From assembly GCA_030141605.1 (NCBI GenBank), contig JAQGDQ010000015.1, forward strand, positions 1,240,001-1,304,000: a stretch of 64,000 bases of DNA, written 5' to 3'. Below, in pieces: positions 20,520-58,915 of the stretch. A model generated the notes under the pieces. That model had not been told where the DNA came from, ran no database searches, and saw nothing but the letters and a program-made list of their open reading frames with translations. Numbering within the stretch: the first letter of the stretch is position 1; every line of letters begins with the position of its first letter. The translations under genes and the position numbers were made by a program. Source of the DNA: Tubiluchus corallicola. Taxonomy: Eukaryota; Animalia; Priapulida.

Positions 20520-22669
20520 TCAGCGTAACACCATTCTCATTTTATACTCTGAAGGTGAACAGATGAAGCCAACAACCGGTTCCAAGTCAAGCTCAGTATC
20601 GCATTCTTCCTTTTCTATATCGAAGTGTTGAAGTGCGCAGGTAAAGTAAAGAAAAAGCTCCATTTTTGTCAGCGATTCCCCGAGACAAACTCGTCTTCCT
20701 ATAAAAAACACTCACATAAATAGTATTAATGGTTTTAATGATATAATACAGAAATTTTTGACACTTATGTTGTGCTAAAAACCATAAAAATCATATAAAC
20801 GTATAAACGTAAGAGTTTATCATAAAAAAATAAAATGAACTAACTGTAGCAGCGGCACATTTTACAACATATCGGATGTTTCAAAATTTAATAGCAATAA
20901 TTACGGAATGAATCTTAGTGGCAACAAACTTGGCTTCATATTTTAATTTACACCTATATATTACGCTGTTCTCTATATATGGCCATGGATTAGATTCAGA
21001 TTTCAGAGATTTTCCACCTTTACTCTAGAATCAGCATGGTAACAGAAGAAAACGGCGCAAAACATAGGCTCGAAACAAGAACAATTCTCCACAATTTACC
21101 AAATCAGATTTTACCGAAAGATGAATGTCATTGTTTGATTAGCTGCAGAAAAAAACTGAAAATCAAATTAGTTGGTGACTTATAAAACGCCCTACACTGT
21201 TAACTTTTACCAACTGAAAATGGTAGAAAATCTTCATTTTTTATGAATTGTCCGCTCTCGTTCAGATGTCGCTCTGGTCGAAAAACTTCAGGTTCTGGAA
21301 AAACTTCAGGATTCATCAGCACCGCCGTGGGATTGAAAGTTACAGGAGTCAGCTTTGGAATTGTGTAATTGTCAAGTAGTACTTCTTCGCTGTTAGTGTG
21401 GGGTGCCACAATTGGCACAATGTTACCTATATAATAATAGTACAATAATTACCGGTACAATAACATTAAAGGACAAGGAAAGAGCATAAATAAAGTGTAA
21501 AACAATTGTCCTGAAATTTTGCACCACTTACATCCTGTCTTTTTGCATAGAGAGCTTGCGTTAGCAGTAATGTTGCACAGGTATTTGAAGAAACTGAAGC
21601 AAGTGCAGACAAAATTAAAAAAACAATCGGATCATCTGCAGCCCACATGTTAAGGAAATATATGAAGGACTTTAATTTGTTGATAAACTTAATAGTATGT
21701 TTTCTGGCAGGAAGCAGTAAGCGCAAAGTGGTACAAACATGATTCGCGTGGTGTAACAATATCAATATTGAAAAAAATTGTTTCGAATCGTTAAAAATGA
21801 GTTGGTTAAAGAAACTGAAAAATACTGTGTTAATAGGACACGCACCTATTCGTTGAATCTCTGTCAATGTTGCTTCTACATAAGGCATGAGAGGGCGGTC
21901 GCTGCAAGAGGGCATGCGGCTTCTTCCAATAATGTCATCAATCTCTTGCTGAACTTTCTTCATCACTTCCGGGTACTTCATCATAAAAAGAAATGCCCAA
22001 CGTAACGTTGTGGCAGTTGTTTCAGTACCCGCGAAGAACAGATCGGCTGCAACAGCGCTCAGCTCATCAACTACAAAATAATGACAAAACGCATTGCAGA
22101 AAGAAGTTATTAATTGCCTATTTTTAATAAAACCTTGATTCAATAAGTTCTATCATAGTACTAATATATGTGGAGCAAAAAGAGAGAAAGACGTTTGTTT
22201 TGCTTTGATTTGATTTAAACTTACATTTCAAATTAACGCCATAGGTTTGTATGTGGTGCATTGCGTGTTTTGTATTATTTTTACAATATTTTATTTTTAT
22301 TATAATCCATTGATATACTGATTAAAATTACATGTAAAGGCTTTCTTATTTTTATTTATTCTTATTTGATGTGGTGCAAGTACCAACTTGGTAACGTCGT
22401 TACATCTATAAAACTCTATCTACCATAACCGTGTTTAAACTATAATGTAAATTTTGAAAATAGGCAGCCTTTTGCTGCTCTTGAGCTACTTCATTCGTAA
22501 AGAGAGAGAAAAGAAAGAGAAAAAGAAAAATGGTAATATTTTTAATTAAGCTCTGGTTGTTTCAGCATACAGTATAGTTCTCAGGTGTTAAAATAAGATA
22601 AATTAAAATTAACTTAACTCAAATTAAATTAAGTTAAATTAAATTAAATTATAAAATCTCCGTCGCCTA

Positions 22670-22742
<73 letters not shown>

Positions 22743-25700
22743 CACAGGGAGGATTGAAACGAAGAGAAAAAGACAGAAAGACCGAGAGAGGGAAAACACA
22801 GAGTTACAGAGAAAAAGGGTGGAAACAGGCATGTACACTTACTGTTAAACGTTGTGTCAGCATTTCCGTCTTTTTCTTCTTGCTTCATGTGACTTATATA
22901 AGCATCTATGAAGTCCCTTATATTTTCCGAATCGAAAGATTCTATATGGTTGTCTATGTGTTTCACAATGAAGTCAAATACCAATTTCTGATTGTTGATG
23001 AAGCTCAGATAGCTGAAAAAAGGAGACTCGTCATCATCATCGTTGTCGTCGCCGTCATAGTCGTCATCATCATTATCATCGCCACTTTCTGAAATTATCA
23101 CTCGTCATCATCATCATCTGATCAACAATGTTACTATTACGAATGCCGCCTCCCTCGATCTTTTTGGTTGCGACTGCCGGCAAAGCGGCACAGTAGAATT
23201 AAGAAGTTGCAGTAAAATATTATGTAGTTTCTTATACTACAATTTCTCAGATCCCTGAAGATCATTACAGCATTGCTTTATGCCACTACAGTTTAACACA
23301 GTTTAATAATTATCTTACTAAATACCTGTTTCGAACTCCAGGAAGAAATCTTGTCCAAGGAAAGACATCAATGACACCCATTAGTAGTGTATTTGATGCA
23401 TCTTCGCAAATTGCCCTCATTAATTTTAGAAATTCCTCATTATCATAATCGTAGCAGGCTCCTAACACTATAGATGAGATAACATTGGAGACACTATTGT
23501 TCATAAGAATCCGGATGTTAAAAGGTTGTCCGTTCTTTAGTTTGATTTCGTTTAGAAAACGGGCAGTTTCTTCCTTGATTTTCGCTTCCAGGCTAACTTT
23601 TCCCATACCAAATTCCCTGAGGGCAATCAGAGCAAATTTTCTTTGTTCTTTCCATACTCTGCCTTCAGAAAACACCAATCCTAAATAAAAAAAATAACGA
23701 ATGCTGAAAAGCGGTTAGTTTGGTGATAAAAAGTAAAATCACCTAGCCTGTGACGAATGTAATTCGTTGTTAAACATAACTAAATTTTAATACCAAACTT
23801 GAAAGAGAAGAAACGTAAACAGTCACAGTACAGTCAGGGACTTTCTTACATCGGCCTCAGCCTCAGACTACTAAACCACTGCATTGCCTGTGGTCAAGGC
23901 AGTCCAAACTTTATCCTTATAGTTGTCCAGTTAATTCAGCTTTTCCAATATGTTAGGTCGCTCACACTAAGGTGATACTAACTAATCAGATTATTTTTTA
24001 TTTTGATTAATTTAGAGCCTGAAATTTCCGTGAGTCATTAATTAAGTATTGCAAACTTAATGTCATGATTAATATTAATGACGTTACATACACGCAATTG
24101 AGTAACTTTTGGTACCAATCTTGAAAGACAGGAAACGTGCAGAAGTTGAACTTGATATGCATCCCGGCTGCACATTCTGATATATTCACATTATCTGTTT
24201 TTCGAGTTTGACATCAAAATTTAATGAATTGTGGGTTTGCAACGTAATTAATAATAATTTTCACATAAAGGTTATTATAAACATAATTTATTAGAGGTCG
24301 TCTATTAATTGATGTATAAACATATTGACAATTGCGTGTAAAAAGTACCAAATATCAGCTGTTATGATTTGTCTTAGCTATTTATAGAGGAAAACATGTC
24401 AACGAACAGATCTGCGTCTCGAATAAGCTGCACGCTATGGCTCTTATGTAAACATCCTAGGAGTTGAAGCTGCGTTCGCAAAGGCGTACATATTATACTG
24501 CTCAATATTTTGAAGAAAGCAAGTCACTGCTTCCAGTGCAGAAAAGGCATTAACGTAACTATAAAGTGCAATGTCAGGATTAGCTGCTACAACTGCAAGG
24601 AAAATCGTCATTTATCAGTCTTATATGGCTTATTATATGGCTACTTAACTCGATTTTGTTAATATATGTTCACAATCTGTAGGCATGGGGGATTGATAAA
24701 TCATATTATAATTATCAATATTAAACTAGTTGACAATGTTTCTGACGTGGTCAGAAACTGAAGATTTTGCAACAATAGTTATAAAATTGTGTCTTAGCAA
24801 TGAAGAGAGACTCTTGAAAGTGCTTATTTTCTTTTATTGAATTCACCTTGCTTGAATACATGGGAAGTGCATTTCACAATGAAACCTCAGCAGCCTATCA
24901 CCCATTTCTTTTCATTTGATATACAACAAGTTACTTTTGGTAGACCCTGGAAGTTATTTGTCTCCTCGACCTTATTTTGCCCCTAACTAGGTCACTACAA
25001 TACAAGGTCAATACAAAGTGCATTGCTCAACACGCCGTGCATTTCTGTGATGTGGTCAGAAACTGAAGTTTTTGCAAACAATAGTTATAAATGAAGTCTT
25101 AAAAATGAAGAGACGACGGCCTTTGTTTGAAAGTTATTATTTTCACCTTGCTTGAATACATAAGAAGTCAATTTCTAATCAGCCCGTCACCCACGGGTCA
25201 AAGGCCAGCCAATCTTGGCATTACTTATACCATTACATTTGGCTCACTGAGACCTTTCATTTTGTGTATTAGCTACTTTTGGTCGACCCTGGAAGACGTT
25301 TGTCTCGTAGACCCCTATTTTGCCCCTAATGAGGTCAAAAGTTAACGATTCACATTGTAACCTATGCCATTCGATTCGGCTCACCAATACCGTTCATTTG
25401 ATATGTTACATAGTGCTATTCCTAGATACTCGATGAATTTCTGTTCCTGACCGCCATTTCTCAGTTTTTACCCCCTACTGGGGTCAGAGATCAACCAGTC
25501 GCTCAGTAATTATTACCATTCAATTTGTCCCATCGAGACCTTTCATTTGCTGTACTACAAACTAGTTTTGGTACATAGTGAAAGGCGTTTGTCTCCTCGC
25601 CCCCTATTTTGCTCCCTAGGTGGGTCGCAGGTTAACTATTGTAATTTCATTACGCGGGAAACTTGTAATTTCATTGTGAAGTACAGTTCCTATGTAGTCA

Positions 25701-27908
25701 AGCAACAATGTGAATTCAATAAAATGCCAAGCTACAATTTTCAAGAAAAAGGCTAGCGTTTTTACAAGGCCCAAATCTGTAACTATTGTCTGCGAAATCT
25801 TCAGTTTCTGACCAGGTCAAAAACATTGTCAACTAGTTAATATTTTGCTATAGCAAAATCTTGCTGTTTTTCATCCGGTTATTTATATTATTTATTAATT
25901 ATTCTCCGCCACTTTAACGCTTAATAACTCGTAAGCTTTGCAAGCTAAGGTCACCAAACACACAGGGTTGGTAGTCGTGGGTGGGGACGTACAGCAGTAT
26001 AGCAACTGCTGACCGCTGGTCAAGAGGGAAAGACAGTGGGCGTTGGTCTATTGGCTAGTGGGCATAGCCCTATTCATATGCACTAGATACATTTCTGTTC
26101 CTGACCCCCACTTTTCGGTTTTTCACCTCTACTGTGGTCAGAGATCAACCAGCCTCGGCATAACTTATACCATTCGGTTTGTTTCATCGACAATATGCTA
26201 CAAGCTAGTTTCGGTCGACACTGGAAGACATTTGTGTCCTTGACCCCTATTTTGCCCCATAGCCAGGTCGCAGACTAACTATTCTAATTGTAACCTATGC
26301 CATTCGATCCGCCTCATTGGAACCTTTCATTTGTTGTGCTACAAGGTACCATTGCTCAACACTCGGTGCACTTCAGTTCTCGACCCCCATTTTTCGGTTT
26401 TTGCCCCATAGCGGAAAATTTTCCTACACGCGCGCGTCCCATATTTTGTGATGTGCAAGACCCCATCTAGCAACACACCAAATATTGTGGCCTTAGCTCA
26501 AAATTATGGGAGCAAATGGATCCTAAAGAAAAATAAATGAAAATCCGACCGCTCCGTGACCTTTGACCCGACATCTCGGGTAACATGTATACATAGATAA
26601 CTTTGCCAAGAGAGTGTACCCTGTTAGTTTTGTGTCCCTAGCCCTCACCATGCCAATTGGGTGACCTCCTCACTTCGGCGTTTAAAGTTTGTCAGCTTTT
26701 TAAAACCCCAGGTGCACATCTACCCCACAGTGCCCATATACTTGTGATAAAAATGGAAAAACCCGAAAACCCTAGGAGGAGATGCATTCTAAAGGAAAAA
26801 CTGACCAACGCTTACTGCCCTTCCCCCTTGACCAGTGGTCATAGGTCACCACACTTTTGTACGTTCCCACCCAGGGCTACCAATCCTATGAGTTTGGTGA
26901 CCCTAGCTTGCAAGGCTTACAAGTTTTTAAGCGTTAAAGTGGCCGAGAATAAATAAGAATAAAAATAAATAACTCAATGGAAATCAGTAAGATTTTGCTA
27001 TAGCAAAACCTTAATAAATAAATAATAACTATATGAAAAACAGTAAGACTTTCCTATGGCAAGATCTTAATAGCTGTATGGAAAAGAGTAAGATTTTGCT
27101 ATGGCAAAATCTTAATAATAATAATAATAGCTCAATGAAACACAGTAAGATTTTGCTATGGCAAAAAACTTAATAATAATAATAATAACTCAATGAAAAA
27201 CAGTAAGATTTTGCTATAGTAAAACCTTAATAATAACTCGATGAAACGCAGTAAGATTTTGTTATGGCAAAACCTTAATAATAACTCGATGAAACACAGT
27301 AAGATTTTGTTATGGCAAAACCTTAATAATAACTCGATGAAACACAGTAAGATTTTGTTATGGCAAATCCTTAATAATAATAACTCAATGAAAAACAGTA
27401 AAATTTTGCTTTGGCAAAATCTTAACAATAACTCAATGCAAAACAGTAAGATTTTACTATAGCAAAATCTTAATTAGCTGTAGAAGATACTTTCTTCTCG
27501 TTGGAATCGCTTCAGCTTTAATTTAAAATCTTTACCAGGTATATGACTGATATGTCCAAAACCGAGTCTCGGCAATAGATTATCAAAGATAAAACTGCGA
27601 CCTCGCCCAGAGAAGACGTCGCCATGTTTTAGGAAAGCTTCGCGTGCTAATGCAGCGTCATTGATGATAACGTTCAATTTGTTGCCAATATAAATGCTGA
27701 ACATTTTTCCATATTTCTTGGACAACTTTGCGTAGAATACACCCGGGTGCTTGCCCATAGATAAAACGGATCCTACATAGGGCCAACCTAACGGTCCAGG
27801 TGGAATGTTCGCCGGTCTTTTCATGTGCTGCCACACTAAAGCACCCAAGATCATGCAAACGCCTCCGAGCAAAACTTTTAATAGCCAACAAGCAACACTC
27901 GTCACCAT
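20520..27908 (-). CDS. Cytochrome P450, CYP2 clan (CYP2J/2U-like), 6 exons
   Basis: Phase-consistent exons 27908-27536 (TM anchor, PPGPLGWPYVG), 23680-23326 (WKEQRKF), 23012-22843 (IRDFIDAYI), 22070-21846 (DLFFAGTETTATT I-helix, EIQR), 21426-21211 (FRPERHL) and 20698-20520. The spliced heme motif is PFSVGRRVCLGE. Confidence 0.95.
22679..22741. repeat. (GA)n microsatellite in a CYP intron
   Basis: Direct reading. Confidence 0.97.
24723..25839. mobile_element. Non-autonomous TIR element in CYP intron 1
   Basis: Left AACTAGTTGACAATGTTTCTGACGTGGTCAGAAACTGAAGATTTTGCA is inverted to right TGCGAAATCTTCAGTTTCTGACCAGGTCAAAAACATTGTCAACTAGTT. There is an internal repeat of the left subterminal block at ~25045. 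Confidence 0.8.
25843..27012. mobile_element. Foldback/MITE-like element with ~200-bp imperfect inverted repeats ending in the palindrome ATTTTGCTATAGCAAAA
   Basis: 25843-26048 (…gccactttaacgctta…gcaagctaaggtcaccaaac…gcgttggtc) is inverted to 26803-27010 (gaccaacgc…gtttggtgaccctagcttgc…taagcgttaaagtggc…). Confidence 0.8.
26965..27473. repeat. Minisatellite, ~10 units of ~45-58 bp (modal 48), each with a palindromic core
   Basis: Unit AATAATAACTCGATGAAACACAGTAAGATTTTGYTATGGCAAAACCTT; length varies mainly with AAT number. Confidence 0.93.
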
Positions 27909-29365
27909 TTTAACAGATGTCTCCGACAGCTTTTCCCAAGATGTAAGTTACTAAACCACTAATAATCCACTGTCTCCGCTCACAAAACTGAAAGCTATGT
28001 CACGCATAGCGATAGTTTAATTTACACGCATCTGTGTATCAGTCCCCAGAACATAGTTTCGCAAATTCACCAGAAAAAACAGTTAGTTACATACGCATTA
28101 TCGCAATGGCTTTGCACATGCCTTCAGTTCTTCAGAATACTATTTTGATTAGTTCCCGCTGCTCACGCGCCGAGGCGCTCTACAAGTTTATTGTACTTCA
28201 GCCTGGTTTACTCACAGCTTACTTAAATAACCCAAGGCAAAAGTTTTTATTCAACACTCTTTTTGCACAGTAACTATCATTAGCTGACGACTTTGATTGA
28301 GTAATTTCTAGTAAGCTGTAAGTACATGTAGCTAATAATGAATTCCCAACAACTCAATAGTAGCTTGAAACTGAGCATCCGGTTTGCATTTCGGTAGCCT
28401 TGGACTTGCTCTGCTCTGGATACTTGATATATACAGCACAAACTGTCAAATAACCAGAATTAGCAATTCTACATATTACTGGACTGATTAAATGCAACAT
28501 TGGTTTAACTGACAGTTGCATATTTACATAATTGTTTCTACATAAGATAATCATACGGCCTATATATTGCATACACTAGCCTTAGTTCGCCTAGTTAAAT
28601 TAAAATTCGAAAATTTTCAAATTTATATATTCAGTTGTCATAAGTCTCTGTACAAAATGCTTGTTTGCCAAGAAGACTGCCTTAACAGATTATGAACATA
28701 GATGATCTTCTTTGAAATTTGATATATGAAGAGAGATCTTCCTTGAAATTAGGTATGCGAAGAGAGCGTTCATCACTGATCAGGAATTGCTGGCATGAAT
28801 GAACGCTTAAAAATTATCGCATAAAATATATTAAAATGGTTGACGTTTAGAGCTCAGCGCATTGTGCATAAGGACTGCTGAAGAACACAAAAATTAAATC
28901 TTCGGTTATCAGTTTGCAAGTAAATGTGTTCTTTTCACTTAGTTCGCTGTAGACATCGACAAGTTACGTAAGCTACGCCAGTACTGTTAATGTAGTCTGC
29001 GTGACATTTTTATTTCAAATAAAAACCTTTGTAAGATTGATCAAAATTTTACTAATTAGTAAATTTAGCACCAGTTCATTAATAAAAGCGTAACTTCTGG
29101 CAGATGTTAAAGAAAAGCCACGAGGAAACTCATATCCGGGCGGGGAATTCCGTTGATGAATTTGGGGTAATTACTAGAAATCCCCGAAACTGGATTGCCT
29201 CAAGCAACTAAGCTGTCACGACAAGTTCTTTTATTGAAGGTCTGAGGTATGTATTGTGGCGTACACTTTGTTGCAAGTTTCCTTAGGCGGCTGTTGATCT
29301 GTATTTTCTTATTTATTAGCTTTCGTGAACACATTACCGTGTAGTTTAAACTGTATGTTTAAAAT

Positions 29366-32300
29366 ATGTTCGAGCGTGTGTCTTTGTGTTGTTTTTTAAC
29401 TACAGTTTTATCCGCATTTATAAAATTGGCGTGCTGGTATGATTGATTGCATTACTTATGGTGATATGATTGTTTTACTAAACTGAAAGTTTAATGCAGT
29501 ACCTTTTAAGCTGTAGGATATACAGCATCACGTAATTTAGTGACAGACAGTCCGAGATTGTTAATTTAGCTGGCTGGACGATGCGAAGGATTACTGCAAT
29601 ATAACAGATTCTAATCATTCTATACCGCTTCAAAATTAATCCATAGACTAATTTTACATTTTACACTAAGTAACAATGAGATAAATAAGAATTGTAAAGA
29701 AAGGAATCAAGTAGTAAGCATGTTATTGATGATTAGTGAAGTAGCTGCAATTAAAACGAATTATATAATGACTGTATATACAGTATAATTCGAACTGCTG
29801 TGCAGTCTTCACAGAATATGCAAACTGTAAGATGTGTCTTAATTTTTCATATCGTATCAACTTTGGTAAAAAAATAAGAAACGATCAGGACTGACACCGA
29901 CTTTCATATGATGTAGCTTACTTTGCAATACTAAAAAGGTAGTTTTGCTTTTTCAGTCAAAAGATTAATCACCACGTGTTAAATCCATCGATAGCAGTTG
30001 TCGGAGGAAATCCGGTTCCGTCAGGACCTACTCTTGTAATCGGAGGTAGTCCAGTGGTCGCTCAGCCAATTAGGTCTGGAAACGGAGGTGTTTTCCCAAA
30101 TGTAGTAGGAGGTATTCTTCCGTTTAGTTGTTACGATAAATAACTGAGACATAAATAAACAAGAATATCGTTCTGAAAAAGCTGAAATTGTTAATTTGAA
30201 TAAAACTTTTAAGATTTGTTTCATTCAAAAGTCACGCATGTTTTCTGGCTAATGTAAAAACCTAAATTAATAATCTTTGCACTAAGACAAGAACGTCCGT
30301 AGAGCATTTCACTTCACAACAGCCATATATACTAATTTAATTTTGCGTAATCTTTCCGGCCAATTTCGGCGAGGAACTTTAATTGATTTATTAATTTTTT
30401 AATTGTCGTAATTAAAATAAACATAGAGTACACTAGCTTGTAAAAAAGAGTACATGTATAGTAATTTTATAAACATTATTTGTTAGCAGGTAATTTTCGA
30501 AATCAAAGAAAGAAATTTGTTGTAAAAGTAGTCAGAGGTGCGTGAAATTTAAAATTTCTAAATCTGATTTTGGGTTGCATTATGTTAAATCCATAGAAGA
30601 TCCAAAAATATTAATTTTATGCAAGCAAGGTTATCTAATAATTGTGATAACAGATAGGACCGTTGAACAATAATACATCTTCAACATGACGATCATTGTT
30701 TATAAACGTCACCGTTATTTACAAGTATAGCAAAAACATGACCAGGATAAGGATCAGCAAAGCCGACAAACAAATAAATAAACAAACATGCAGCAGGTTT
30801 TGTATCTTTTGCATGCATATCAAGATAAAAGTAATGTACCAGTAGACTAAAATTCAGAGTTAGATTGCATTTTCTTTTTAATTTGTTGATTAGATTACGA
30901 AAAGCCAGTAAGTCTATATACGATGTAATTGGTAACATTTACCGCATTTCTACTATTAATGGTTACAACAATACGAAGAACTCTGCTGATCATAACAGTT
31001 TCTACATTCAGCTTTCTACATTCAGAAAACGGAGTCATTTTTCATCAACATCTACATCTGCAGTGTATTATAACAGTCATTTTTATTTTAGGGAGTCCCA
31101 TCACAGCACAGCAAAGATATCCCTGGCAAGTTCTCATAAAAGTCACCGGAGATTTTACATGTGGAGGCTCACTTGTGCATCCATGTTTTGTACTCACAGC
31201 AAAACACTGTTTAATAGGACTTACTGCTAAAGACGTTAGTGTTGTACTAGGTGAGCACCCTTATTTTTCTTGCAAATTAATAATTTCTTGCATTAATTTG
31301 TTAAGGATTAATGTGTTAAGGATGTGTACACTATACGCATAATTACACATAAAGATGCTTTATATGCTGTGTAGGAAAAGAATGTGTTTGGACGGCGGTC
31401 GCTGGTCCGTGGCACGTATGATGCATGCAGATGCCATCTGGATCATCTAGAATATTCTGTATGCTGTTGCAGACGGGATACCTGAACTATCGCACAAGAT
31501 GTCTATATTTTTGACAGAACCAGATGCATGTAAAAGGGTCTTTAAGGGGATTTAGTAAATCCAACACGTCAGAGCGGTTTTAAAAGAAAGCAGGACCTAA
31601 TTTCATGCCATTAGCGTAAAATAGCTAACCTAGGGTTTGAAATGTTGGAAATACAGTTTTTATGAGTGATTTTGTTTAATTATTCAAAAATTTTCCCCAC
31701 TGAAGTCGAGTTTCAATTTTGTCAGTTTTTCCAATAAAGCGACTCGTAGTCATATAACATTTTCAAGAAATGATGTCCAAAAAGCAAAATAGATATGTTA
31801 TCAAATCAGAAGTCAAAGTATCACTAAAATTTTTTTAACAACTTCCTTCATTATGTTTAAGTAGCTTTATTGTTAAATTGCAATAAACAGTTTTAAAGGT
31901 AAACCAGCCTTTTATCAAAGTTTTTATCAAAGAAACGTGATTACATATTTTTTCTGAAAAACAACGTTAAAAAGTTAAAAAATTTTACAGGTGAACATAC
32001 ACGTTCCATCCCAGACCCAACGGAGCAACATATAGCAGTTAAAGAGTTTAAAAAACATCCTGATAGGGATGTTGCGATCTTGCAGTTAACCTCCAGTGCC
32101 ACCCTCACAAACAATGTTCAGGTAATTCCCATGGCGCAGTCTGCTCCAGCCGTTCCTAGCCTAGCTACTGTTACTGGATGGGGACAGACTGAGTCAAACA
32201 AGATTTTTGGAGGAGCTCAAGCTGATGTTCTTCAATATCTGGAGATTTCAGTAGTGGATAATAGCAAGTGTGAAGGTGAAGGCATACCTGTGCAATCACA

Positions 32301-32604
32301 CCAGATATGTGCAGGCAAGTCAAATGGCCCTTACTCGAATGCTTGTTACGGTGACTCAGGCGGACCATTTGCTCAAGTGCAAAATGGAAAGTGGACGCTG
32401 ATTGGTGTAGTGCAAGGCGGAAAGGCTGGCTGCCCTAGCAACAGTAACTACGCTGTATACGAGAACGTGGCTAGTTCTTATTCGTGGATTTACTCACATT
32501 TGCCTAAAGTAAAGATAGCACAATCATCAACAAAGATTTTTTCGCTTATATCAGCTTTAGCTGCAAGACAAGATGGCCCTCTTTCTCAAACATGCCCTGC
32601 TTAA
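29366..32604 (+). CDS. Secreted S1A (chymotrypsin-fold) serine protease, paralog 1, 4 exons
   Basis: Exons 29366-29436 (signal MFERVSLCCFLTTVLSAFIKLAC, least certain), 29957-30111 (propeptide to VVG), 31092-31250 (YPWQV, CGGSL, LTAKHC) and 31991-32604 (RDVAIL, TGWG, GDSGGP). Intron phases 2,1,1 are consistent. Confidence 0.92.
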
Positions 32605-39303: not shown

Positions 39304-47537
<8,234 letters not shown>

Positions 47538-48720: not shown

Positions 48721-49766
48721 TTATGTTATAGGTTGATCTGTTAGATGACGTCACTTTCACGTTAGGTCCACGTGTGAACTTTGAATTCAGTTGTTCATGC
48801 TACTAAATTCCTATTTTGTTAGGCCCATGTTAGAAGTTAAGCTGTTGAACAACAACAGTAATTAAAACTTATTTCTGAGAAACACTTTTTCTAAGAAACA
48901 GACATAAACCAACATTATCGTGCAATATATTTCGCAAGTGATACATGAAAAATGTTTACAATTATTGCTGATCTTAATTTACATTCGTATTTAATTCAAT
49001 AATTGACGTACTAATTGATCTGACTAGTCCTGATGGAGTTGACAGCTACAAGCAACTGATGAAGCAAACAACATATTCAAGGTCGGTTTCTTCTAAAGCA
49101 CACCAAGCGTTCTGTGAATATAGTGTTGTAATTATATTAAGTTCAAGGACTACTATACGACAAGAAATTTATCTCAGCTGTTATAACGTGCAATATAGTT
49201 GCAAATAGATGGCCTTTTTTACTAAATTTTAACATCAAATCTCGCTTCTTCTAAGGTATAATCACGAAAGTTTGTATGGTATTATCATTCTAACCATTCT
49301 GATTCAAACCATTTTTGTAATAAATTAGTCTTTCCTGATCATTTAATAAAGTGGGAAATTAGGTAAGCTGTACACATAATATGTCAAATAAATTCAAATA
49401 AGCATCAAGAAAATTAGGCAAATTGTACACATAATATGGCAGAATTCCTACGAATCTTATAAAGAACCAGAACTAATACTCACTTGAAGTATTAGAAAAT
49501 CTTGTGCTTTGCAAATAAAATGATTACAGTAACAATGATATTAAATTTCATTGCTAGTTTATGTGTTTCATTGCTAAAATATCTGGCATCTATTATAATA
49601 TGGGAAATGAAGCAAGAAGTGAAAATACAACAAAATACTTGTAGATAACAGATAGGGAATAATAATATAGGTAAATAGTAACAAAAATGGGTAATAAGAT
49701 AGACCCTGTTCACAACAATAATATCCTCGTGTAGAATTCTGTGGAACTGTATATGTAAAAGCTCAC

Positions 49767-50550
49767 CATGCCAAGTGCAGTGATATTAAAACCGGCATCT
49801 CTGATACAAGTTATTATTCGACCACAAGCACCTAAGAAAACATAGAATTACTATTATATAAAAAAGACAACATGAAATCAATACGATTTGAAAAGAACTT
49901 TTTTGTTTTTCATAATAGGTAACATTATTGTAATTAAATAGAAAAAATGAGCAAAACAAAGGCAGAGAAAAATATACACAGTCAGACAAATATAAAGAGA
50001 GAGAGAGGGAGAAGACATAAATTTAGATAGACAGAGAGAAAGAGAGAGGGATATAGAAAGAGAGAGAGAGATGTAGCACTTGATCACAATTTAGGAATCA
50101 CTAAATGGTAAATCAGATACCTAAATTTTTAATAATATTGTAGAATTAAGCAAAAGTTTAAAGGCACTTTTCAGCTAACCACATTTTTTACTAAATTGTA
50201 GTCGTAAAAACTTTTTGATAAGCAAACATGAGATCTCCCTAAAGCTTTTTAGACCTGCACTAGAAATAAAAGGTTAAAGCTTAATGCAAATAAAAATCAA
50301 AGAGCTCACAAAAATAATAACCAAATTATGACTTGCAGTAGTTAAAAGACCAATTTAAAAACAACACATACAAAAATTCATGCAAAAACTGGATTTGCTA
50401 ATAATTTTTATAGCCAAAATTCAATTAATTTACCAGACAATACTTACCAGACAGCAACATATGAGGTTTAATTATGCAGAGTGTAAAATGCTGGAATTGA
50501 GCTGTATTCCTTAAACGACCAAATTTTCTTCCGAAGAAAATGTCTATCTC
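49767..50550 (-). pseudogene. NME7: Two NME7-like (nucleoside diphosphate kinase 7) internal exons carried inside the transposon
   Basis: GT-AG exons 50550-50448 and 49831-49767 splice in phase 1 to EIDIFFGRKFGRLRNTAQFQHFTLCIIKPHMLLSGACGRIITCIRDAGFNITALGM. This aligns with the NME7 linker/second NDK-domain start recalled as EMELFF...NTAKFTNCTCCIVKPHAVSEGLLGKILMAIRDAGFEISAMQM. Confidence 0.85.
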
Positions 50551-51599
50551 CTAAAATTCACTATTACTCATATTATACAGGTTTCAATGGCTTTACTTAT
50601 AGTTACATTGGGGCATATTCATTCAAGCAGTTTATATAGCAGCAGCAAATGCATTAAATCTGGTAAAAGTGATACCAAAATAGTTCTTAAAAAAGCCACA
50701 CCAAAACAGCAACAAGTGGCCTTAATGAAAGGCGGTTCTATTATATGCCAGCAGAATGAGAATCACTTATTTGTCTTCATAAGACAGTCAAGTCACAACA
50801 ATGAATACATAATAATTTACAAAATCAAAGGACGAAGGGATGGTGAAAGACACAATGGTCATCTAGACAGCAAATCTAGCTAGCCAGTTAATTTCAACTG
50901 CAAATTTAAAATTTTAATTTAAGCCAGACTACCTCATTTTGGACTTTGTTTTTTATTGATTTTATTGCTTATTGTTGAAAAATCTGGTCATGTCTATATA
51001 GTCACCTAAATGGGTTTGAAATGTGCGACATTTTACTTTTGGATACATCATGTGAACTGACACCTTCACTGAACAATCATATACATTCCATATATGTGTA
51101 TGCCCTAGGCATATTTTAAGGTAAAGAATATTTTAACTCTTATTAACATTCTGAGCACAAGACACGAGAGGAATCTATACAAGATATGGTGCTGCATTTT
51201 TGGTGCAGCACACAATAAGAGTGAATGATGCAGTGCATTTAATGTCAAAGTAGTTGTTAAGTTTGCGGTGCCATTATACAGTCAGAACCATCACACCGAC
51301 CTGTCTCAAGATAGTTATACACAAATAAAATCATCGCAAGTAGAAGTTGTTCATGGGTAAATCATTCTTCCTACTTGCTACAGTAAGACTAAAAACAAAG
51401 CTTGAAAGAAACTATTACATTATTGTGTTTACAAATTCTTTGCTGCAACCCAATTTCATAAAATTTAAGATACATATGGCAATACCAAAATATTTTATGG
51501 AAAGTGCTTTTGACTTTTGCCTCTTAATAATTTGCTAGAAATCTACCAAACCCAAACACTGTGCACAAATTTAGTTTGCCAATTACTATATATATATAT

Positions 51600-54500
51600 C
51601 AAGGACTACTATACAACAGGACGTGCACGCTCAGATCTCTGACTGTGCTAGCGGAGGCGATCAATACTTGTATGAACGTAATCTAGAAATAGTGCGCTTT
51701 AGAGAGTAGTGATCTTGGAAATTAAAGAATGGGCGGATCGGTAGATAGCGAGAATTATTTTTCATTTAATTGGTTCTTTACATTACGGGAGAAAAGTACC
51801 AATTGTTTATTTTATGTATCAAAGGAAATTAGTGTTCATTTTTACTTCTTAAATAGCGCACTACTTTAGGCGTAAGTGTGGTTTACCGGAAGTAGTGCTT
51901 TGTCATTGTTAATGTGTCTGCTTGTGTTTGTTTCTTTGTGGATTATTTTCAAAATTTCTGGTGGATTTTATACATCTGTGCTCAGCAGCATGCCTAACAA
52001 GTGTGGTGTTGTTAAATGCAAAGGTAACTATGACACGGAGAACAAGTGTCGTGTGTTCAGACTGCCAAGAGATCATGTAGAAAAACAGAAATGGCTAAGT
52101 GTTCTTCCCCCACGCGAAGGCTTTGTTGTTGATCCAACGAAATTTTTCATTTGCGAAAAGCATTGGCTATCGGATACTCAAATGGTCAAAATTCCAGGTG
52201 GTCACACCAGGCCAGTGGATCCACCCAGTTTTTTCAACGTTCCAACATCATGCTTGCCCACTCCAAAGCCACCACCTCGCCCTCCAAAAACTGAGGACCA
52301 GCAGCTGAATTATTTCTTTAAAAAGGATAAAATAACTTCTCTCAATGAATTCACTCCTGAGAAAGACCTGCATAAGACGTATCAGAACCTCATTATATCT
52401 CGCACACAAGACAAATTTGTGTGCATGTTCATGGAAGAGGACCACAGTCAATGTTATATGTCAATTATTGTTCACAATAAGCCTACCTTGTGTTCCCCTC
52501 TTACTCTGTATGCTTTCAAAAACGGGATCAGTGTGCCATTAAGTAAAATCCTCAGTCCGAACAATGGGCTGTCCTCTTACTCACAATTTTTCGCGGTTGT
52601 GAATTCTGTTGTCAACCACATTCATCATGTTGATGATATTGTCAACAAAGTGACAAAGTCTCTTGAACTTGAACTAGCTCAAAATCGAGAACAATCTCTT
52701 AGTGTTAATGCTAAAGCCAAGAAGCTCAAATTTCTAACACGACAGCTTCGACTATTATGTGATAAGACTTTCACAGTGTCTGATTATTGCTTTGCAATAG
52801 AGTCGTTTCCCCATTGCAATTACGAACAACTGCGTGACTTTTTAGTGTTACCCAGCAATAGAAAGCTGCAGTCAGTTATTTCATCGACAGATATTGACAA
52901 GGTGCTAGGTAAAACATTTCAGAAAGTGAAAAGCTCTGAGCAGAAACACTGTATGCTATTGGTGGATGAAGTGAAAATACGCCCAACAGTGGCTTTTTCA
53001 GGGGGTGTGCTAAATGGCATGGCAAAAAATGAGCCAGACAGTAAAGCTACATCAATGCTATGTGTGATGGCTAAATGTCTACATGGTGGCCCCAGCGTGA
53101 TGATATCAGTGACCCCCGTTCACAAGCTGACTGCTGCATATCAATTCTCTGTCGTGAAGGAGGCTGCTACAGTGGTTGAGAATTCGGGAGGAACTGTTTT
53201 AGGGTCCATGACGGACAACCACAAGATCAACCAACAATACTGCAAATTGTTTACCAGACGAACAGACTGGGAGGCTGAACATCCCCTGGAAAATACACGA
53301 GTGTGGTTCCTGTTGTATGATACCGTCCACATTCTGAAATGTATCAGGAACAACTGGATCACGGAGAAATGTCAGAGATTATCGTTTGACAAGAAAACTG
53401 TTGGCTCATTTGCTGAAGTAAAAAGTCTTTACAAAGCTGAGAAAGACTATGTGCTCAAGTCAACACCTTTCACATATTCTGCAGTCTTCCCATCGAAACT
53501 TCAGCTCCAGAATGTGCAACATGTCCTGAGGGTGTTCAACGATCGTGTCGTTGCATCGCTGAGACTTCGAGGAGCCCAGGACACTGCAGAATTCATTCAG
53601 CAAGTGCTACGCTGGTGGAATGTGGTAAATGTTTCTGCCAGAGGTCAAGACACGAGGATGAGAGACCCTGATCGATCTGCTCAACAAGATACATCTGATA
53701 CTCTTCAGTCGTTGTTGACTCTGTTTAAGCAAACCGAATCAGGACACGGACCAAATAGAATTGAATGCCTGACACATGATACGCGAAAAGCTTTGATTCA
53801 GACCACGGAGGGACTCCTCGCAATCTGTAGGCACTTGTTTTCTGTTGGATTTCACTGCGTATTATTGCGTGAGCTTCAGAGTGACAGAATAGAGGGTGAG
53901 TTCTTAGTTTACAGGCAGTCAAGGGGGGCCAATGCATTCATGCAAGCTGGAGATGTCTGTTCAGCATTCAAGCGGAGACTGGCGTGTTTCTCTGCATCAT
54001 TCCTGGAGTTTGTGGACACAGACACATCATCCGAAAGCCAGTTGCACACATGCAATGGGATTGATTTCGAGGATGCCAAAATTATGGAGATTTGTGTTGA
54101 CGAGACTCTTTCCAAAACTGAACTGAACGCGTGTGCATATGTCGCAGGTTGGTTGGAGAGTAAGTGCCAAAATGACATTTCTTTTCCCGAGGATGAGCCT
54201 CTCCTTTCTGAGGAAATGAAAATGTTCATTGAAGAAGTGTCTAAGGGAGGTCTTACAGTGCCCCACACATTCACGTTCGAATTCGTAACAACTGGCTTGT
54301 GTTTTGTGAAGAAGTCAACTCACACAGTCTGCTGCCGCAACAAGCTCATGAACATCCTCTCCATAATTAATGCCTACTTTGATTTTGGAGAATTTTCAAG
54401 AAATGCTCTGAGACGCCTGGCGAATGTACTGCTGCATGGACTACACAATTTGGAGAAGGATCACCAGCAGAACTCAGCCCTTTACCAGACCTCCATTAAG

Positions 54501-54907
54501 AAGGCGCGACTAGCCGACTAATTGTCGCAAACATCTCTGCAAAATGGTGAGTGCAATAATTTCATGTATTCTAATTTACACAGAGGAACCTATGAATGAG
54601 TTTATATAGTCCTGACAAAATGGTGCAGTCTGTTTATTCTCTATAGAAAGTGACAGGTAATCTTCGGGACACAATGAGTTGCAGATATGGTGTGTTTTTT
54701 TTTGGGGGGGGGGGGATATCATAGGTACCACTGTTTTTAAATTACTAGATGAATGAGGAATATGTTCTATGTGTATTGTGGCATGCTATAGGTCACCATT
54801 GGGGGTAAATATGTCCAAATTATTAGCACTAAATGTTAAAAATAGATCGCCTCCGCTAGCCGAATCAGAGATTTCAGCGTGCACGTCCTGTAGTATAGTA
54901 GTCCTTG
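51600..54907 (+). mobile_element. Core autonomous P-element/THAP transposon with 63-bp TIRs
   Basis: 51600-51662 versus the reverse complement of 54845-54907: 57/63 identical. The inner left end is preceded by (AT)n and has no matching TSD. Confidence 0.93.
51990..54521 (+). CDS. P-element/THAP9-like transposase, intact and intronless, 843 aa from ATG 51990
   Basis: THAP zinc finger MPNKCGVVKC...FRLP...W...ICEKHW; catalytic motifs LLVDEV, SMTDN, YDTVHILKCIRNNW (D(2)H) and LQSDRIEGEF; C-terminal AYVAGWL and SKGGLTVP. Confidence 0.95.
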   Translation: MPNKCGVVKCKGNYDTENKCRVFRLPRDHVEKQKWLSVLPPREGFVVDPTKFFICEKHWLSDTQMVKIPGGHTRPVDPPSFFNVPTSCLPTPKPPPRPPKTEDQQLNYFFKKDKITSLNEFTPEKDLHKTYQNLIISRTQDKFVCMFMEEDHSQCYMSIIVHNKPTLCSPLTLYAFKNGISVPLSKILSPNNGLSSYSQFFAVVNSVVNHIHHVDDIVNKVTKSLELELAQNREQSLSVNAKAKKLKFLTRQLRLLCDKTFTVSDYCFAIESFPHCNYEQLRDFLVLPSNRKLQSVISSTDIDKVLGKTFQKVKSSEQKHCMLLVDEVKIRPTVAFSGGVLNGMAKNEPDSKATSMLCVMAKCLHGGPSVMISVTPVHKLTAAYQFSVVKEAATVVENSGGTVLGSMTDNHKINQQYCKLFTRRTDWEAEHPLENTRVWFLLYDTVHILKCIRNNWITEKCQRLSFDKKTVGSFAEVKSLYKAEKDYVLKSTPFTYSAVFPSKLQLQNVQHVLRVFNDRVVASLRLRGAQDTAEFIQQVLRWWNVVNVSARGQDTRMRDPDRSAQQDTSDTLQSLLTLFKQTESGHGPNRIECLTHDTRKALIQTTEGLLAICRHLFSVGFHCVLLRELQSDRIEGEFLVYRQSRGANAFMQAGDVCSAFKRRLACFSASFLEFVDTDTSSESQLHTCNGIDFEDAKIMEICVDETLSKTELNACAYVAGWLESKCQNDISFPEDEPLLSEEMKMFIEEVSKGGLTVPHTFTFEFVTTGLCFVKKSTHTVCCRNKLMNILSIINAYFDFGEFSRNALRRLANVLLHGLHNLEKDHQQNSALYQTSIKKARLAD

Positions 54908-56564
54908 ATTAAGTTGTAATTATATTATAGTATATTAAGCTACACAAAAAAACTAATGAAAAACAAGAAAGTGCAGTCAGTCAATTTCGCTTTAATTATT
55001 ATTACAGCATTATCACATATTATTGTGCATGTTTAATTTAGTGAGTTTTAAAAAATATTATGAGAACTAGGAAATTATAGTGAGTCGTTAAAAATTTAAT
55101 AAATGAATATTAAAAATAGGAACAACATTAAATTTTATTGGTGCCCATACGTTTCGTAATCAAGTGTCCTGTGTCCCATATGTAACGTACACCTCCCAGG
55201 CAAGCTACGCTTTGGCACCCTTACATATCTGTAAAATGGGAAACAGAAGAGCTTCTATATCATTGGGCTTTGGCTATGACGTGTTAGTATCATTATTACC
55301 TGCTGGTGTGTAGTTACAATGTAATTGTAAACGTTTATGTCTATACTGGTATATGGGCAAACAATAATAGAGGCTGCACAACTGTTTGTGGTGTACTATA
55401 CTTGATCTATACCTGTAACATATATCTATTGTGTACTAACTTATATTATATATATATATATATATACTTGTTGTATAGCACGTATGTAAAAATAGAGTCA
55501 ATAAGTGCCCAAGTTAACAGATTGGATAAGTTGGATTAGCTTATAACGTCAAGGTTAACCTCAAATCTAATGAACTTTCTCCCAATGAATTAAAGAATAT
55601 TTGTAAAAGAGAGCTACATAGTTCTTTTCCTTGACTTTATATTGGTAAATGGTTGTATATTGTATAATTCGTTATACCAAGTTTTAGCGAGCTCATTTTT
55701 TATTAGCAAAGTTGCCAAAAAATTAACCTGTTTTGCGTTATAGTCTATCGTAAGGATATTATGCACATTCAGCGGTTTTCAACGCTTCACGGTTCTTTAC
55801 ATTCCAAAAATTACTTTTTCAGGAAGAACAAAATGCAATCATATTACGTTATTACTTTTTAGGATCTTAAAGAATTTTCGAGATCCAGGAACCCTTTCAG
55901 GAAATACGATTTAAATTCATTACGTAAAATACAGTGCACAGAGTGAACTTTTCTGCGTCCCCTAAGTCTGCTAACTTGCCAACAGGAATTAAATACTTTT
56001 GCACATAACATGAACGTATTTCCATTTTGTTGTAAATTCACCATTGTCCAACGTCACTAACACAATTCCTACTTCCACGATTTGAATGAAGAAATGTTGC
56101 ACAGCAGTCTGAACGTTCACATCCATTCAGTAATGCAATCCTTTAACATGGAGTAAATAAAGAAACTGCGTCTCTCATATGGTGGGAGCTTGCAGAGAGC
56201 CACTTCCGTCGACACAGCCGCCCTAGCAATGAATCATACCGAAGGTGATAAGGCTGTGTATATGGTATACACAGTTTCAATTTAGCAAAAGCGCTTACCC
56301 TAACAAGGTGGAGGAACAGTGTATAAAAGATACTTGGATATTTATATGGAATGTTTTAGGATGAGCACGAATCAAAATGGCTCAATTTAGGCCCTAACAA
56401 TAAACAACATTTTTAAACAGTAATCGCGAAAACGGGCAGAGAAAACGTTGGTACATTATCGTGGTTGTCTTTTTTAGTCAGACGTGCGTTCTTTGGCGAT
56501 AATAAGTTTAGGCCTATTACCGAAATTAACTTATTTCCGTGCTGGTGTACAGACATTTTGACAT

Positions 56565-56945: not shown

Positions 56946-57002
56946 TAGCCTATTTTTCGCTGTCTAACGTTGGGGAATCCATATTGGAAGAGGCATCAAT
57001 GA

Positions 57003-57597
57003 TATTTAAAGGAAGACAGGATGATTTTCATTATACTAACCCGTTTTCAAGTCCGATAAAAAGTATGCATTTTAACATAATCAATACTACAAAGGCGTTT
57101 CTGATAATTAAATAATAAATTAAAAACTTAATTAACGACGGGTTAGCCCAACTATTGATGACAAACTAACATAACTTTTTATACAACAAAAATATTCCAT
57201 GAGCGTGTTGCACGTGTTGCGCGAAAATTGAAGTACAGTGCTATTGTAAGATATTCAGTGTGTTGTACTAAAACTAGGCAAGTTTTAAGATAAAAATTAA
57301 AATTTCAAATTTACCGCTGTGTTCATACTGGGCTGTCGATGTTTGTGTAGTTTGTCACAAACGAACTCACCTAAACTTAGATGTACAGCGCCTGTTTTTT
57401 GTGCAATGCGTTTCCGAACTAACTACGTTTCAGTGCCCGTCTAACTAACGAATGGCGAAATGCATGTAACAGCGAAGAACTAGTGGCGCGAACATGAAAT
57501 TGTGCGTGTGTGGTAATAATTCTTTCGTAAGTAATTTCTGAAAAAATAGTATGTTTCCTTTCCGTATTTTTTTAACTTACAGTTTAAGATTGGGTCC
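57003..57597. repeat. Dispersed repeat, copy B (inverted copy of 19620-20220)
   Basis: See copy A; begins TTTAAAGGAAGACAGG. Confidence 0.85.
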
Positions 57598-57611
57598 GGT
57601 TTTGCTCTCAG

Positions 57612-58915
57612 ATTCAGCATATAGCAGAATCTTATTGGAAATCAACCGTTTATTTCTTCAATTTTGAAATCATAATAACTTCAAAACTAAAACATCTAGA
57701 ATCACGAAACTTGCGGGGTATGTGACTAACACTAGCATGGTGACCGGTGACTTTGGTTCAAAGGGTCAAGGACACTGGACATCGGTCAGTTTTTTCGATT
57801 ATTACTCAACTCCTCCTAGGGCTTTGAGTTTAATTCATTCTTTTCCACGGGTATATGCGCACCTAGGGTGTTAAGAACCTAGAATTTTTCAAGGGCCGAG
57901 ATAAGAGCCAATGTGAAAATTAAGGCAAACGGCTTAGCAGAATCACGAAATTTACAGGGGTAGGCACCTAACATAGGCAGCCACAAAGTGGTATAGGAAT
58001 GGTGACTTCTGCATCAAAGGTTACACCAGTAGGCCCCAAAATCTGGAAATTAGGGCGATTGACTTTGTCACTCAACTGTTCTTACAATATTGGATTAGGA
58101 GTCACTGTTTATGCATGTATGGGTAACCCAGCAAGAATAGATGAGAATTAAGTATTTTTTTTGAAAACTGGGCGTGACCAGATCACGCGACATAGGGAAA
58201 AGTGTTAAATTGAGGTCTGATGAATAAATCCAAAACTAAAACAGCTAGAGTCATGAAAGTTCCAGAGAAGACACCTGAGCTAGGGGACTAGCACTGACGT
58301 AGTGAACGGTGACCTCGAGTCAAAGGTCAAGGAGACTAGACATTGATCTATTTTTCGTTTGTTGCTCAATTCCTTTTAGGGCTTCAGAACTTTTTCATAG
58401 TATGCCCTGTGGAGTAGAAGTACATTAAATATTTTTGGAAAAATTGTAGTCTAGGAAAGTTCCTGGTTAGGGGCCAAAATGTGAAAATTAGGTTAAACGG
58501 CTTTGTCACTGAACTCCTGTTGCAGTATTGGACTAAGAGTCAATGTGTATTCATGTGTGGGTAGGCCCGTGGGCGTAGATGTGCATTAAGAATTTTTCGA
58601 AAACTGGGTATGGCACGTCACGAACATAGGCGAAAGTGTTAAAATGGGTCTGGTCAATAATTTTATAAGTATACGAGCTATAATCACGAAACTTGCAGGA
58701 TAGGCACCTAATACAGGCTCCTAATAGCTCCACTTACACCATTGGGCTAGTTTTTGAATGTATGCATAGGCTGGTAAGGGTAGATGTGCAGAAGGTATTT
58801 TTCATATTGTGGGCGTGGGCACGTCATGTAACATAGGTAAAAGTGTTAAAATGGGCTTGTAATAAAATGAATTTCTTATGTAATCATGTATGGAGAATTT
58901 AACAATAGCAAAATC
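57612..58915. mobile_element. Modular repeat element related to the one at 25843-27012
   Basis: Starts ATATAGCAGAATCTT (compare CTATAGCAAAATCTT); internal repeated modules (ctagaatcacgaaact, aaagtgttaaa, ggtgac..tcaaagg). Confidence 0.55.

What the first reader, a model, noticed from the sequence alone, without database searches (positions are those of the whole stretch)
49136..54915. P element with two left ends: the TSD belongs to the outer end, 2.4 kb upstream of the canonical TIR
Seen: the 63-bp TIR pair (51600/54907) has no TSD (left flank ATATATAT, right ATTAAGTT). A second, short left end CAAGGACTACTATACGACAAG at 49144 is preceded by exactly ATTAAGTT. Removing 49144-54907 and one TSD restores a plain local repeat (GTTGTAATTATATTAA GTTGTAATTATATTAT). 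Known: P-superfamily transposases make 8-bp TSDs and can pair ends from different elements (hybrid/alternative transposition). Inference: the last jump used the outer end, bypassed the inner end, and moved 2456 bp of foreign DNA together with an intact transposase. That makes it an autonomous cargo-carrying P element, and only ~21 bp of recognisable terminal identity was enough.
Basis: partly seen in the sequence, partly recalled or inferred. Interest (0 to 1): 0.9.

Follow-up and report, generated by a model that had tools for sequence, protein, structure and literature searches.

The report
P-transposon scar with captured NME7 exons
A P-type jumping gene carries an extra 15-base piece of its own left end and a 2.4-kb copy of part of a host cilia gene (two NME7 exons); the piece is likely the scar of a cut that DNA repair patched with copied DNA, not a working second end.

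Summary
ATTAAGTT flanks the outer left end (49144) and the right TIR (54907); the inner TIR pair (57/63) has no TSD. The outer end matches the TIR exactly for 15 nt only (19/21 overall). The core encodes an open 843-aa P-superfamily transposase. In public contigs the core is at roughly 16-130x flank depth (medians), the cargo at only 1.3-1.7x. No second stub+cargo copy with another flank appeared. A second cargo version has a longer (TA)n where the core starts. One sample holds an excision-scar-like contig with a right stub of exactly 15 nt. In Drosophila, P cleavage leaves TSD plus up to 17 nt of TIR on the flank. Most likely (0.6) the outer end is such a scar, and repair copied in a family member's NME7 flank. 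Rivals: a two-copy composite whose outer copy later excised (0.15), or a true jump using the stub (0.12). It is Pack-TIR-like, a new case of known processes. The scan noted a P-type scar before on other DNA (e1-9846307), not this structure.

The parts
49136..49143 (+). Left 8-bp target-site duplication ATTAAGTT
   Evidence: Sequence; chance at a fixed place 1.1e-4
49144..49158 (+). 15-nt stub identical to TIR positions 1-15; likely cleavage scar
   Evidence: bridged by contigs X1 rec1, X2 rec9, X4 rec25; same length as the right stub of the scar-like contig in table 5c
49157..49165 (+). Possible microhomology: 7 of 9 letters match TIR positions 14-22; an X3 contig carrying second-version alleles starts exactly at 49157
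   Evidence: reading as microhomology is inference
49159..51599 (.). Captured host genomic DNA (NME7 introns and two exons), 31% GC, present in two versions in sample S1
49767..49831 (-). NME7 coding exon B (65 nt, AG/GT), aligns from about NME7 residue 252
   Evidence: Best hits NME7, E 5.9e-6; splice sites and phase
50448..50550 (-). NME7 coding exon A (103 nt, AG/GT), aligns to human NME7 residues 218-252; in phase with exon B
   Evidence: best E 0.0086; all 10 listed hits named NDK7, NDK or FAP67
51587..51599 (+). (TA)n run, 13 nt, abutting the inner TIR; longer in the second cargo version
   Evidence: Loose ends behind 51599 in X1 and X2
51600..51662 (+). Inner left TIR, 63 bp
51990..54521 (+). 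Intronless P-superfamily transposase ORF, 843 aa (THAP + RNase H; D326/D409/E635 invariant in alignment A1)
54845..54907 (-). Right TIR, 63 bp, 57/63 to the left TIR
54908..54915 (+). Right 8-bp target-site duplication ATTAAGTT
   Evidence: contigs X1 rec7 and X2 rec15 run from 54881 into the flank

Best explanation
The outer 'left end' is likely a 15-nt scar left when transposase cut the left end of a P element that already sat at this site, and the NME7 fragment was likely copied in while that break was repaired. Shown: TSD + 15-nt stub + NME7 fragment + (TA)n + full core + TSD; the core family is multicopy; the cargo has a second version. Inferred steps: (1) an ordinary P copy inserted here with both full ends and made ATTAAGTT. 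(2) Transposase later cut its left end (or both ends) with a long stagger, leaving TIR 1-15 on the flank. (3) The element-side end used another family copy, sitting in the (TA)n of an NME7 intron, as repair template and copied 2.44 kb past that copy's left tip. A variant without a donor copy: the cut left end itself was strand-transferred into the NME7 (TA)n. (4) The new strand was joined to the stub at a short microhomology. The TSD is then older than the cargo, and the composite need never have jumped.
For: Stub length and position match documented P donor-site junctions: 8-bp target + up to 17-nt tail + filler (PMC2895639 Table 1). The same paper says most repair products are incomplete synthesis followed by end joining. 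PMC7776569 section 7: 17-nt stagger, sequential cleavage of the two ends, internal 10-bp binding sites. Gap repair driven by P-end homology and replacement of one P by another are described in PMC3887531 (passages). In this family, runs X1, X2 and X4 (one sample) hold a contig with 20 nt of left TIR + 12-nt filler + exactly 15 nt of right TIR, at about flank depth (table 5c). No loose end before 49144 in 3 of 3 runs, and S1 contigs run unbroken across 49144 (X1, X2, X4), so no second flank for stub+cargo is seen. Cargo/flank depth is 1.29-1.68; median core/flank is 16-131. A second cargo version (window-type:other 1.09-1.51 at 8 of 8 bubble pairs computed) has a longer (TA)n at 51599. Other family ends are flanked by (TA)n: loose ends before 51587, 51588 and 51592, 5 contigs in X1 and X2. 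So the inner junction looks transposase-made. An X3 contig starts at 49157, not 49144, which fits a parent locus lacking the stub.
Against: No core-only allele at this site was seen: no joint from the stub to 51615 table 5. No donor P in the NME7 (TA)n was shown; the microsatellite breaks the contigs. The parental sequence upstream of 49157 was never displayed (206 loose-end rows hidden; nothing laid there at 94%). In S1 the second version merges only at 49198 or 49216. The scar-like contig is one example from one sample, its left part is 20 nt, and its locus is unknown. The cut offset of this transposase is unmeasured. The final sequence is the same under the rivals, so the ranking rests partly on parsimony. 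Contig depths are not copy numbers.
Confidence: 0.6

Rival explanations
1. Composite (macro)transposon: two full P copies 2.44 kb apart in an NME7 intron moved together using the full left end of the outer copy and the right end of the inner copy. The outer copy was later excised, and end joining removed its right stub. Cargo moved by transposition, but with canonical ends.
For: Explains TSD, 15-nt stub, microhomology and the precise inner junction equally well. Local hopping is a P feature. Junctions that lose most of one tail occur in PMC2895639 Table 1.
Against: Needs two insertions in one gene, a composite jump, an excision and a one-sided deletion. No trace of a right stub or inner TSD after 49158. 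No allele with two cores seen.
Confidence: 0.15
2. One reading: stub+cargo+core existed elsewhere and transposase paired the 15-21-nt outer end with the right end, ignoring the intact inner end, so the 5.76-kb unit is a mobile cargo-carrying P element.
For: The TSD brackets the whole unit. End bypass by P is on record as an anecdote under induced transposase (described in PMC8277862). A contig in 1 of 4 runs joins 49112 to 55046, lacking both cargo and core (weak, 29 letters on the short side).
Against: A 15-nt exact match cannot be chance (1.2e-9 per site), so an earlier cut is still needed to create the stub, plus an extra atypical jump. The outer end lacks TIR positions 23-63 while a full end lies inside. 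No second copy with another flank. At least 8 core positions differ from all laid contigs in all four runs (shown rows table 3), suggesting the copy has sat here a while.
Confidence: 0.12
3. Transposase-independent insertion: a break inside the left TIR was patched with NME7 DNA, duplicating the 15-nt tip (gap-filling, or a retro-type insertion with a 15-bp TSD and a TA tail).
For: The cargo is bounded by a 15-bp direct repeat and ends in (TA)n (family D14). PMC8277862 finds most single-copy Pack-TIRs arise without transposition.
Against: The cargo keeps introns and is antisense genomic DNA with no RT hit among 21 cargo ORFs scanned, so it was not retroposed. The (TA)n is parental and longer in the second version. 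The duplicated piece is exactly the element tip, where transposase cuts.
Confidence: 0.08
4. Assembly error at the inner junction: stub+cargo and right end+flank are real but are joined differently in the genome.
For: No listed contig piece bridges 51599/51600; the (TA)n and the multicopy core break the graph.
Against: The outer junction is bridged in three runs of one sample, the right TIR runs into the unique flank, and both carry the same TSD.
Confidence: 0.05

Closest known systems
Drosophila P-element donor-site repair products (P{wa} assay, PMC2895639; passages, section 7 and Table 1 read)
   Same: 8-bp target duplication directly followed by a short TIR tail, then other DNA; short microhomology or templated filler at joints; synthesis followed by end joining.
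   Different: There the template is the sister chromatid or nearby DNA and fillers are tens of bases. Here the filler is 2.44 kb of another gene plus a whole element, the tail is 15 nt rather than 16-17, and the case is natural, in a non-Drosophila animal.
Pack-TIRs, transposition-dependent gap filling (Tan et al. 2021, PMC8277862; passages read)
   Same: Host gene fragment held between TIR-transposon sequences, low copy, parental copy retained, possible microhomology.
   Different: Breakpoint at the element tip rather than inside; a complete transposase ORF lies within the unit; parent locus not located.
End bypass / capture of flanking DNA by a P element (Tsubota and Huong 1991; paper not held; known here only from its description in PMC8277862 and from recall)
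   Same: P element plus adjacent single-copy DNA within one TSD.
   Different: There a native flanking sequence stood in for the TIR (an 8-bp match and later remobilisation, both recalled). Here the outer end is 15 nt of real TIR and no remobilisation is seen.
Targeted transposition / P replacement by gap repair (PMC3887531; passages read)
   Same: P-end homology lets one P copy template repair at another P's site; flanking DNA can be duplicated.
   Different: Laboratory constructs; copying of an ectopic donor's host flank was not shown in the passages read.
Drosophila P transposase (PDB 6p5a)
   Same: THAP, RNase H and GTP-binding region align to the family profile (E 1e-21).
   Different: Intronless 843-aa ORF, 63-bp TIRs; the single sequence alone did not hit 6p5a. 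Closest database relatives are 50-69% identical and mostly unnamed.

Membership tests
P superfamily DNA transposon | N-terminal THAP (C2CH) domain | tested here: met
   PF05485 24.4 bits vs cut-off 23.9; C55 and H58 invariant in 38 sequences
P superfamily DNA transposon | RNase H DDE core homologous to Drosophila P transposase | tested here: met
   PF21787 E 3e-12; profile A1 hits 6p5a E 1e-21; D326, D409, E635 invariant. Their catalytic role is inferred from the alignment and recalled numbering.
P superfamily DNA transposon | Terminal inverted repeats | tested here: met
   57 of 63
P superfamily DNA transposon | 8-bp TSD | tested here: met
   ATTAAGTT at 49136-49143 and 54908-54915; absent for the inner pair
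P superfamily DNA transposon | Long staggered cut inside the TIR (17 nt in Drosophila) | tested here: inconclusive
   Two 15-nt stubs (this site; scar-like contig table 5c) and one 20-nt stub; no biochemical test
P superfamily DNA transposon | GTP-dependent transposition activity of this copy | not testable with these tools
   ORF open, but 8 departures at columns at least 90% conserved in the 30 closest homologs, 3 of them at 30/30
Pack-TIR (Tan et al. 2021) | Non-TE host sequence between TIR-TE sequence on both sides | tested here: met
   Two NME7 exons between a 15-nt stub and the core; the left TE part is minimal
Pack-TIR (Tan et al. 2021) | Parental copy elsewhere in the genome | tested here: inconclusive
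   Second version at about 1:1 depth in S1; locus not placed, no genome held
Pack-TIR (Tan et al. 2021) | Microhomology at the breakpoint | tested here: inconclusive
   2 nt exact, 7 of 9 imperfect, inferred from one X3 contig start; parental upstream sequence unseen
Multicopy Pack-TIR / mobile end-bypass element | Further copies of the whole unit with different TSDs | tested here: not met
   No loose end before 49144 in 3 of 3 runs; cargo/flank 1.29-1.68 in 4 of 4 runs; two samples only, contigs only
End bypass (Tsubota and Huong type) | Outer end is a native cryptic sequence of the parental flank | tested here: inconclusive
   Chance of a native 15-mer is 1.2e-9 per site and the X3 contig starts at 49157, both against; parent not read directly
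Hybrid-element insertion / alternative transposition | Ends from two elements with a reciprocal flank rearrangement | not tested
   Needs the assembly or long reads; the two flanks here fit as one original site, so no rearrangement is apparent

The most novel reading that the evidence does not exclude
A naturally occurring P element that adopted a 15-nt excision scar as its working left end and jumped with two host NME7 exons and its own transposase, in preference to an intact inner end: scars would be reusable ends, and P elements would be exon shufflers like Pack-MULEs.
Probability: 0.12. Interest if true: 0.65.

Novelty: new member of a known kind. Interest (0 to 1): 0.35.

Why it matters
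It is a clean natural example, outside Drosophila, of a P-family element duplicating host coding exons. It shows that a TSD around a composite does not prove the composite jumped: P's long staggered cut leaves TSD-plus-stub scars that mimic ends. The 15-nt stubs give a testable prediction for the cut offset of an uncharacterised, intronless, multicopy P family. If the stub did work as an end, minimal-end requirements known from Drosophila would need revising.

Tried and rejected
No paralog of either flank of the insertion lies in the window. Searches for a full-length NME7 with the 45-aa exon-B frame found nothing, so no tblastn for more exons. A Pfam scan of 101 of 114 minus-strand flank ORFs (13 dropped as low-complexity) found no NDK or DM10 hit, but the positive control, exon A, also gave none, so this is uninformative. 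Four NDK motif patterns (recalled) hit only exon A in six frames. Metagenome scans: none with the single protein; 46 mostly distant loci (24-54%) with profile A1. 23 of 46 were examined for TIR and TSD: no 8-bp TSD among the top pairs, uninformative; double ends were not searched there. No RNA holder listed. The joint 49112-55046 is seen in 1 of 4 runs with a 29-letter side and removes 31 + 138 extra flank bases, so it is treated as weak. The X3 gap at 49155-49156 has no bridging contig; a hole proves nothing. Retroposition of the cargo was rejected (introns kept). Zygosity could not be settled from contig depths. Paper searches listed no report of this structure; two searches returned nothing. 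Four older papers were not held, so the classic P-replacement literature was not read. No supplements were opened.
Full report
Observation. The inner left TIR begins at 51600 and the right TIR ends at 54907; 57 of 63 positions match. Their flanks, ATATATAT and ATTAAGTT, differ. A third copy of the TIR tip begins at 49144, preceded by ATTAAGTT. The 15-mer occurs only at these three places in the window at up to 2 mismatches. Chance expectation is 1.6e-4 for the 15-mer and 1.1e-4 for the matching 8-mer. The outer end is exact for 15 nt. Position 16 differs in all three ends (G, A, T); positions 16-21 match 4 of 6 and 22-30 match 3 of 9. So the real terminal identity is 15 nt, with a weak tail that may be microhomology.

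The core. The ORF at 51990-54521 gives 843 aa with THAP and TNP-like RNase H domains. 109 proteins matched at E <= 1e-20, the best 69% identical. A profile of 38 sequences hits Drosophila P transposase 6p5a at E 1e-21, and D326, D409 and E635 are invariant. The single sequence alone did not hit 6p5a. This copy departs from the family at 8 columns that are at least 90% conserved in the 30 closest homologs, three at 30/30. At least 8 core positions differ from all laid contigs in all four runs (40 rows shown, 57 hidden). 'Autonomous' is therefore possible but not shown.

The cargo. 49159-51599 is host genomic DNA. It holds two consecutive minus-strand exons, 50550-50448 and 49831-49767, with AG/GT ends and matching phase. 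They align to adjacent parts of NME7 (exon B frame E 5.9e-6; exon A frame E 0.0086). Each hit is modest; collinearity and splice phase make the assignment firm. Whether the rest of NME7 lies nearby could not be tested sensitively.

Public contigs. Six runs were listed, four holding the stretch: X1, X2 and X4 from one sample that may be the window's source, and X3 from another study. All are contigs, so depths are rough. The outer junction is bridged in X1, X2 and X4; X3 reaches only 11 letters into the stub. The right TIR runs into the unique flank in X1 and X2 with 27 letters on the TIR side. No listed piece shows the inner junction. Median core depth is 79, 131, 16 and 104 times the flank in X1-X4; cargo depth is 1.51, 1.68, 1.29 and 1.45 times. 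In S1 the cargo has two versions at 1.09-1.51 to 1 over the 8 bubble pairs computed. One contig each in X1 and X2 continues as (TA)n past 51599 instead of entering the TIR, as expected of a parental intron with a longer microsatellite. Five contigs in X1 and X2 have (TA)n plus TIR with unrelated DNA further left, so the family often sits in (TA)n. No loose end lies before 49144 in 3 of 3 runs (that table was not marked as cut). The X3 contig over the cargo starts at 49157 and shares some second-version alleles; if its start marks the branch between parent and composite, the parent lacks the stub and shares 7 of 9 letters with TIR positions 14-22. Against this, in S1 the second version merges only at 49198 or 49216, and the parental upstream sequence was never displayed; unexplained extra depth at 90% in that bin may be it. 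Finally, X1, X2 and X4 hold a contig with 20 nt of left TIR, a 12-letter filler and exactly 15 nt of right TIR (table 5c). It is probably at another locus, since the right-junction contigs here are unbroken at 54893. It looks like an excision scar, but it is one example from one sample.

Mechanism. Drosophila P transposase cuts 17 bp inside the TIR on one strand and cuts the two ends sequentially (PMC7776569 section 7). Donor sites keep the 8-bp target and up to 17 nt of TIR, joined by microhomology or filler (PMC2895639 Table 1), and most repair products combine partial synthesis with end joining. P-end homology can template replacement by another P (PMC3887531). TSD plus 15-nt stub is therefore what a cut leaves behind. 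The simplest history is inferred: a normal insertion made the TSD; a later cut left the stub; repair copied a family member lying in the NME7 (TA)n and ran 2.44 kb into its flank (or the cut end was joined into that microsatellite); the strand was then joined to the stub. I give this 0.6. A composite of two full copies with later loss of the outer one gets 0.15. All three give the same final sequence. Neither a core-only allele nor a donor copy was observed, so the ranking is not proof.

Comparison. It is a P-superfamily element by domain, TIR and TSD tests. It works like a transposition-dependent gap-filling Pack-TIR (PMC8277862, passages); membership is met for captured host DNA and inconclusive for parent and microhomology. 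It fails the multicopy test on two samples. PMC10983969 (passages) repeats the 17-nt cut for the fly enzyme; PMC1978519 (abstract) reports linked DNA moving with an atypical Ds. Nine paper searches listed no report of this structure, but the library lacks most older genetics papers. A sequence look-up found no look-alike window.

Verdict. A real, well-formed structure and a new natural case of known processes, with the added fact that it duplicates two NME7 exons. Interest 0.35; novel reading 0.12 likely, worth 0.65 if true.

Noticed in passing
contig in runs X1, X2, X4 (table 5c), laid as 51619 to 54893: Probable excision scar of this family elsewhere in the genome: 20-nt left stub, 12-letter filler resembling the TIR, 15-nt right stub.
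   Followed up: partly
window 51615 (TIR position 16): Position 16 differs between left, right and outer ends, and a one-base loss there appears in contigs of all four runs (table 4); it may mark the boundary of the staggered cut (speculation).
   Followed up: no
window 51587-51600: Several other family ends are flanked by (TA)n: possible preference for TA microsatellites as targets.
   Followed up: partly
window 49154-49157, run X3: One contig ends 11 nt into the stub and another starts 2 nt before its end, with nothing laid between; possibly allelic variation within the stub in a second sample.
   Followed up: partly
window 31903-32604 and 46749-47537: Two trypsin-family paralogs, 86.7% identical over 566 nt; a 104-bp tandem duplication at 46662-46868 lies at the start of the second.
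   Followed up: no
window 21466-27947 (-): Frames that look like cytochrome P450 exons (motifs recalled, not searched).
   Followed up: no
window 653-1921 (-): 422-aa single-frame ORF resembling a secreted divergent kinase (recalled likeness, not searched).
   Followed up: no
window 42356-42694 (-): Reverse-transcriptase fragment, PF00078 E 6.8e-4, below cut-off.
   Followed up: no
window 56996-57598 vs 20228-19619; 57674-58865: A 75%-identical inverted dispersed repeat and a degenerate tandem array.
   Followed up: no
L001 188-3245; L009 116-3903: L001 (34% protein identity) has a TIR sharing the first 7 letters with this family; L009 shows a 7-bp flank duplication rather than 8.
   Followed up: no
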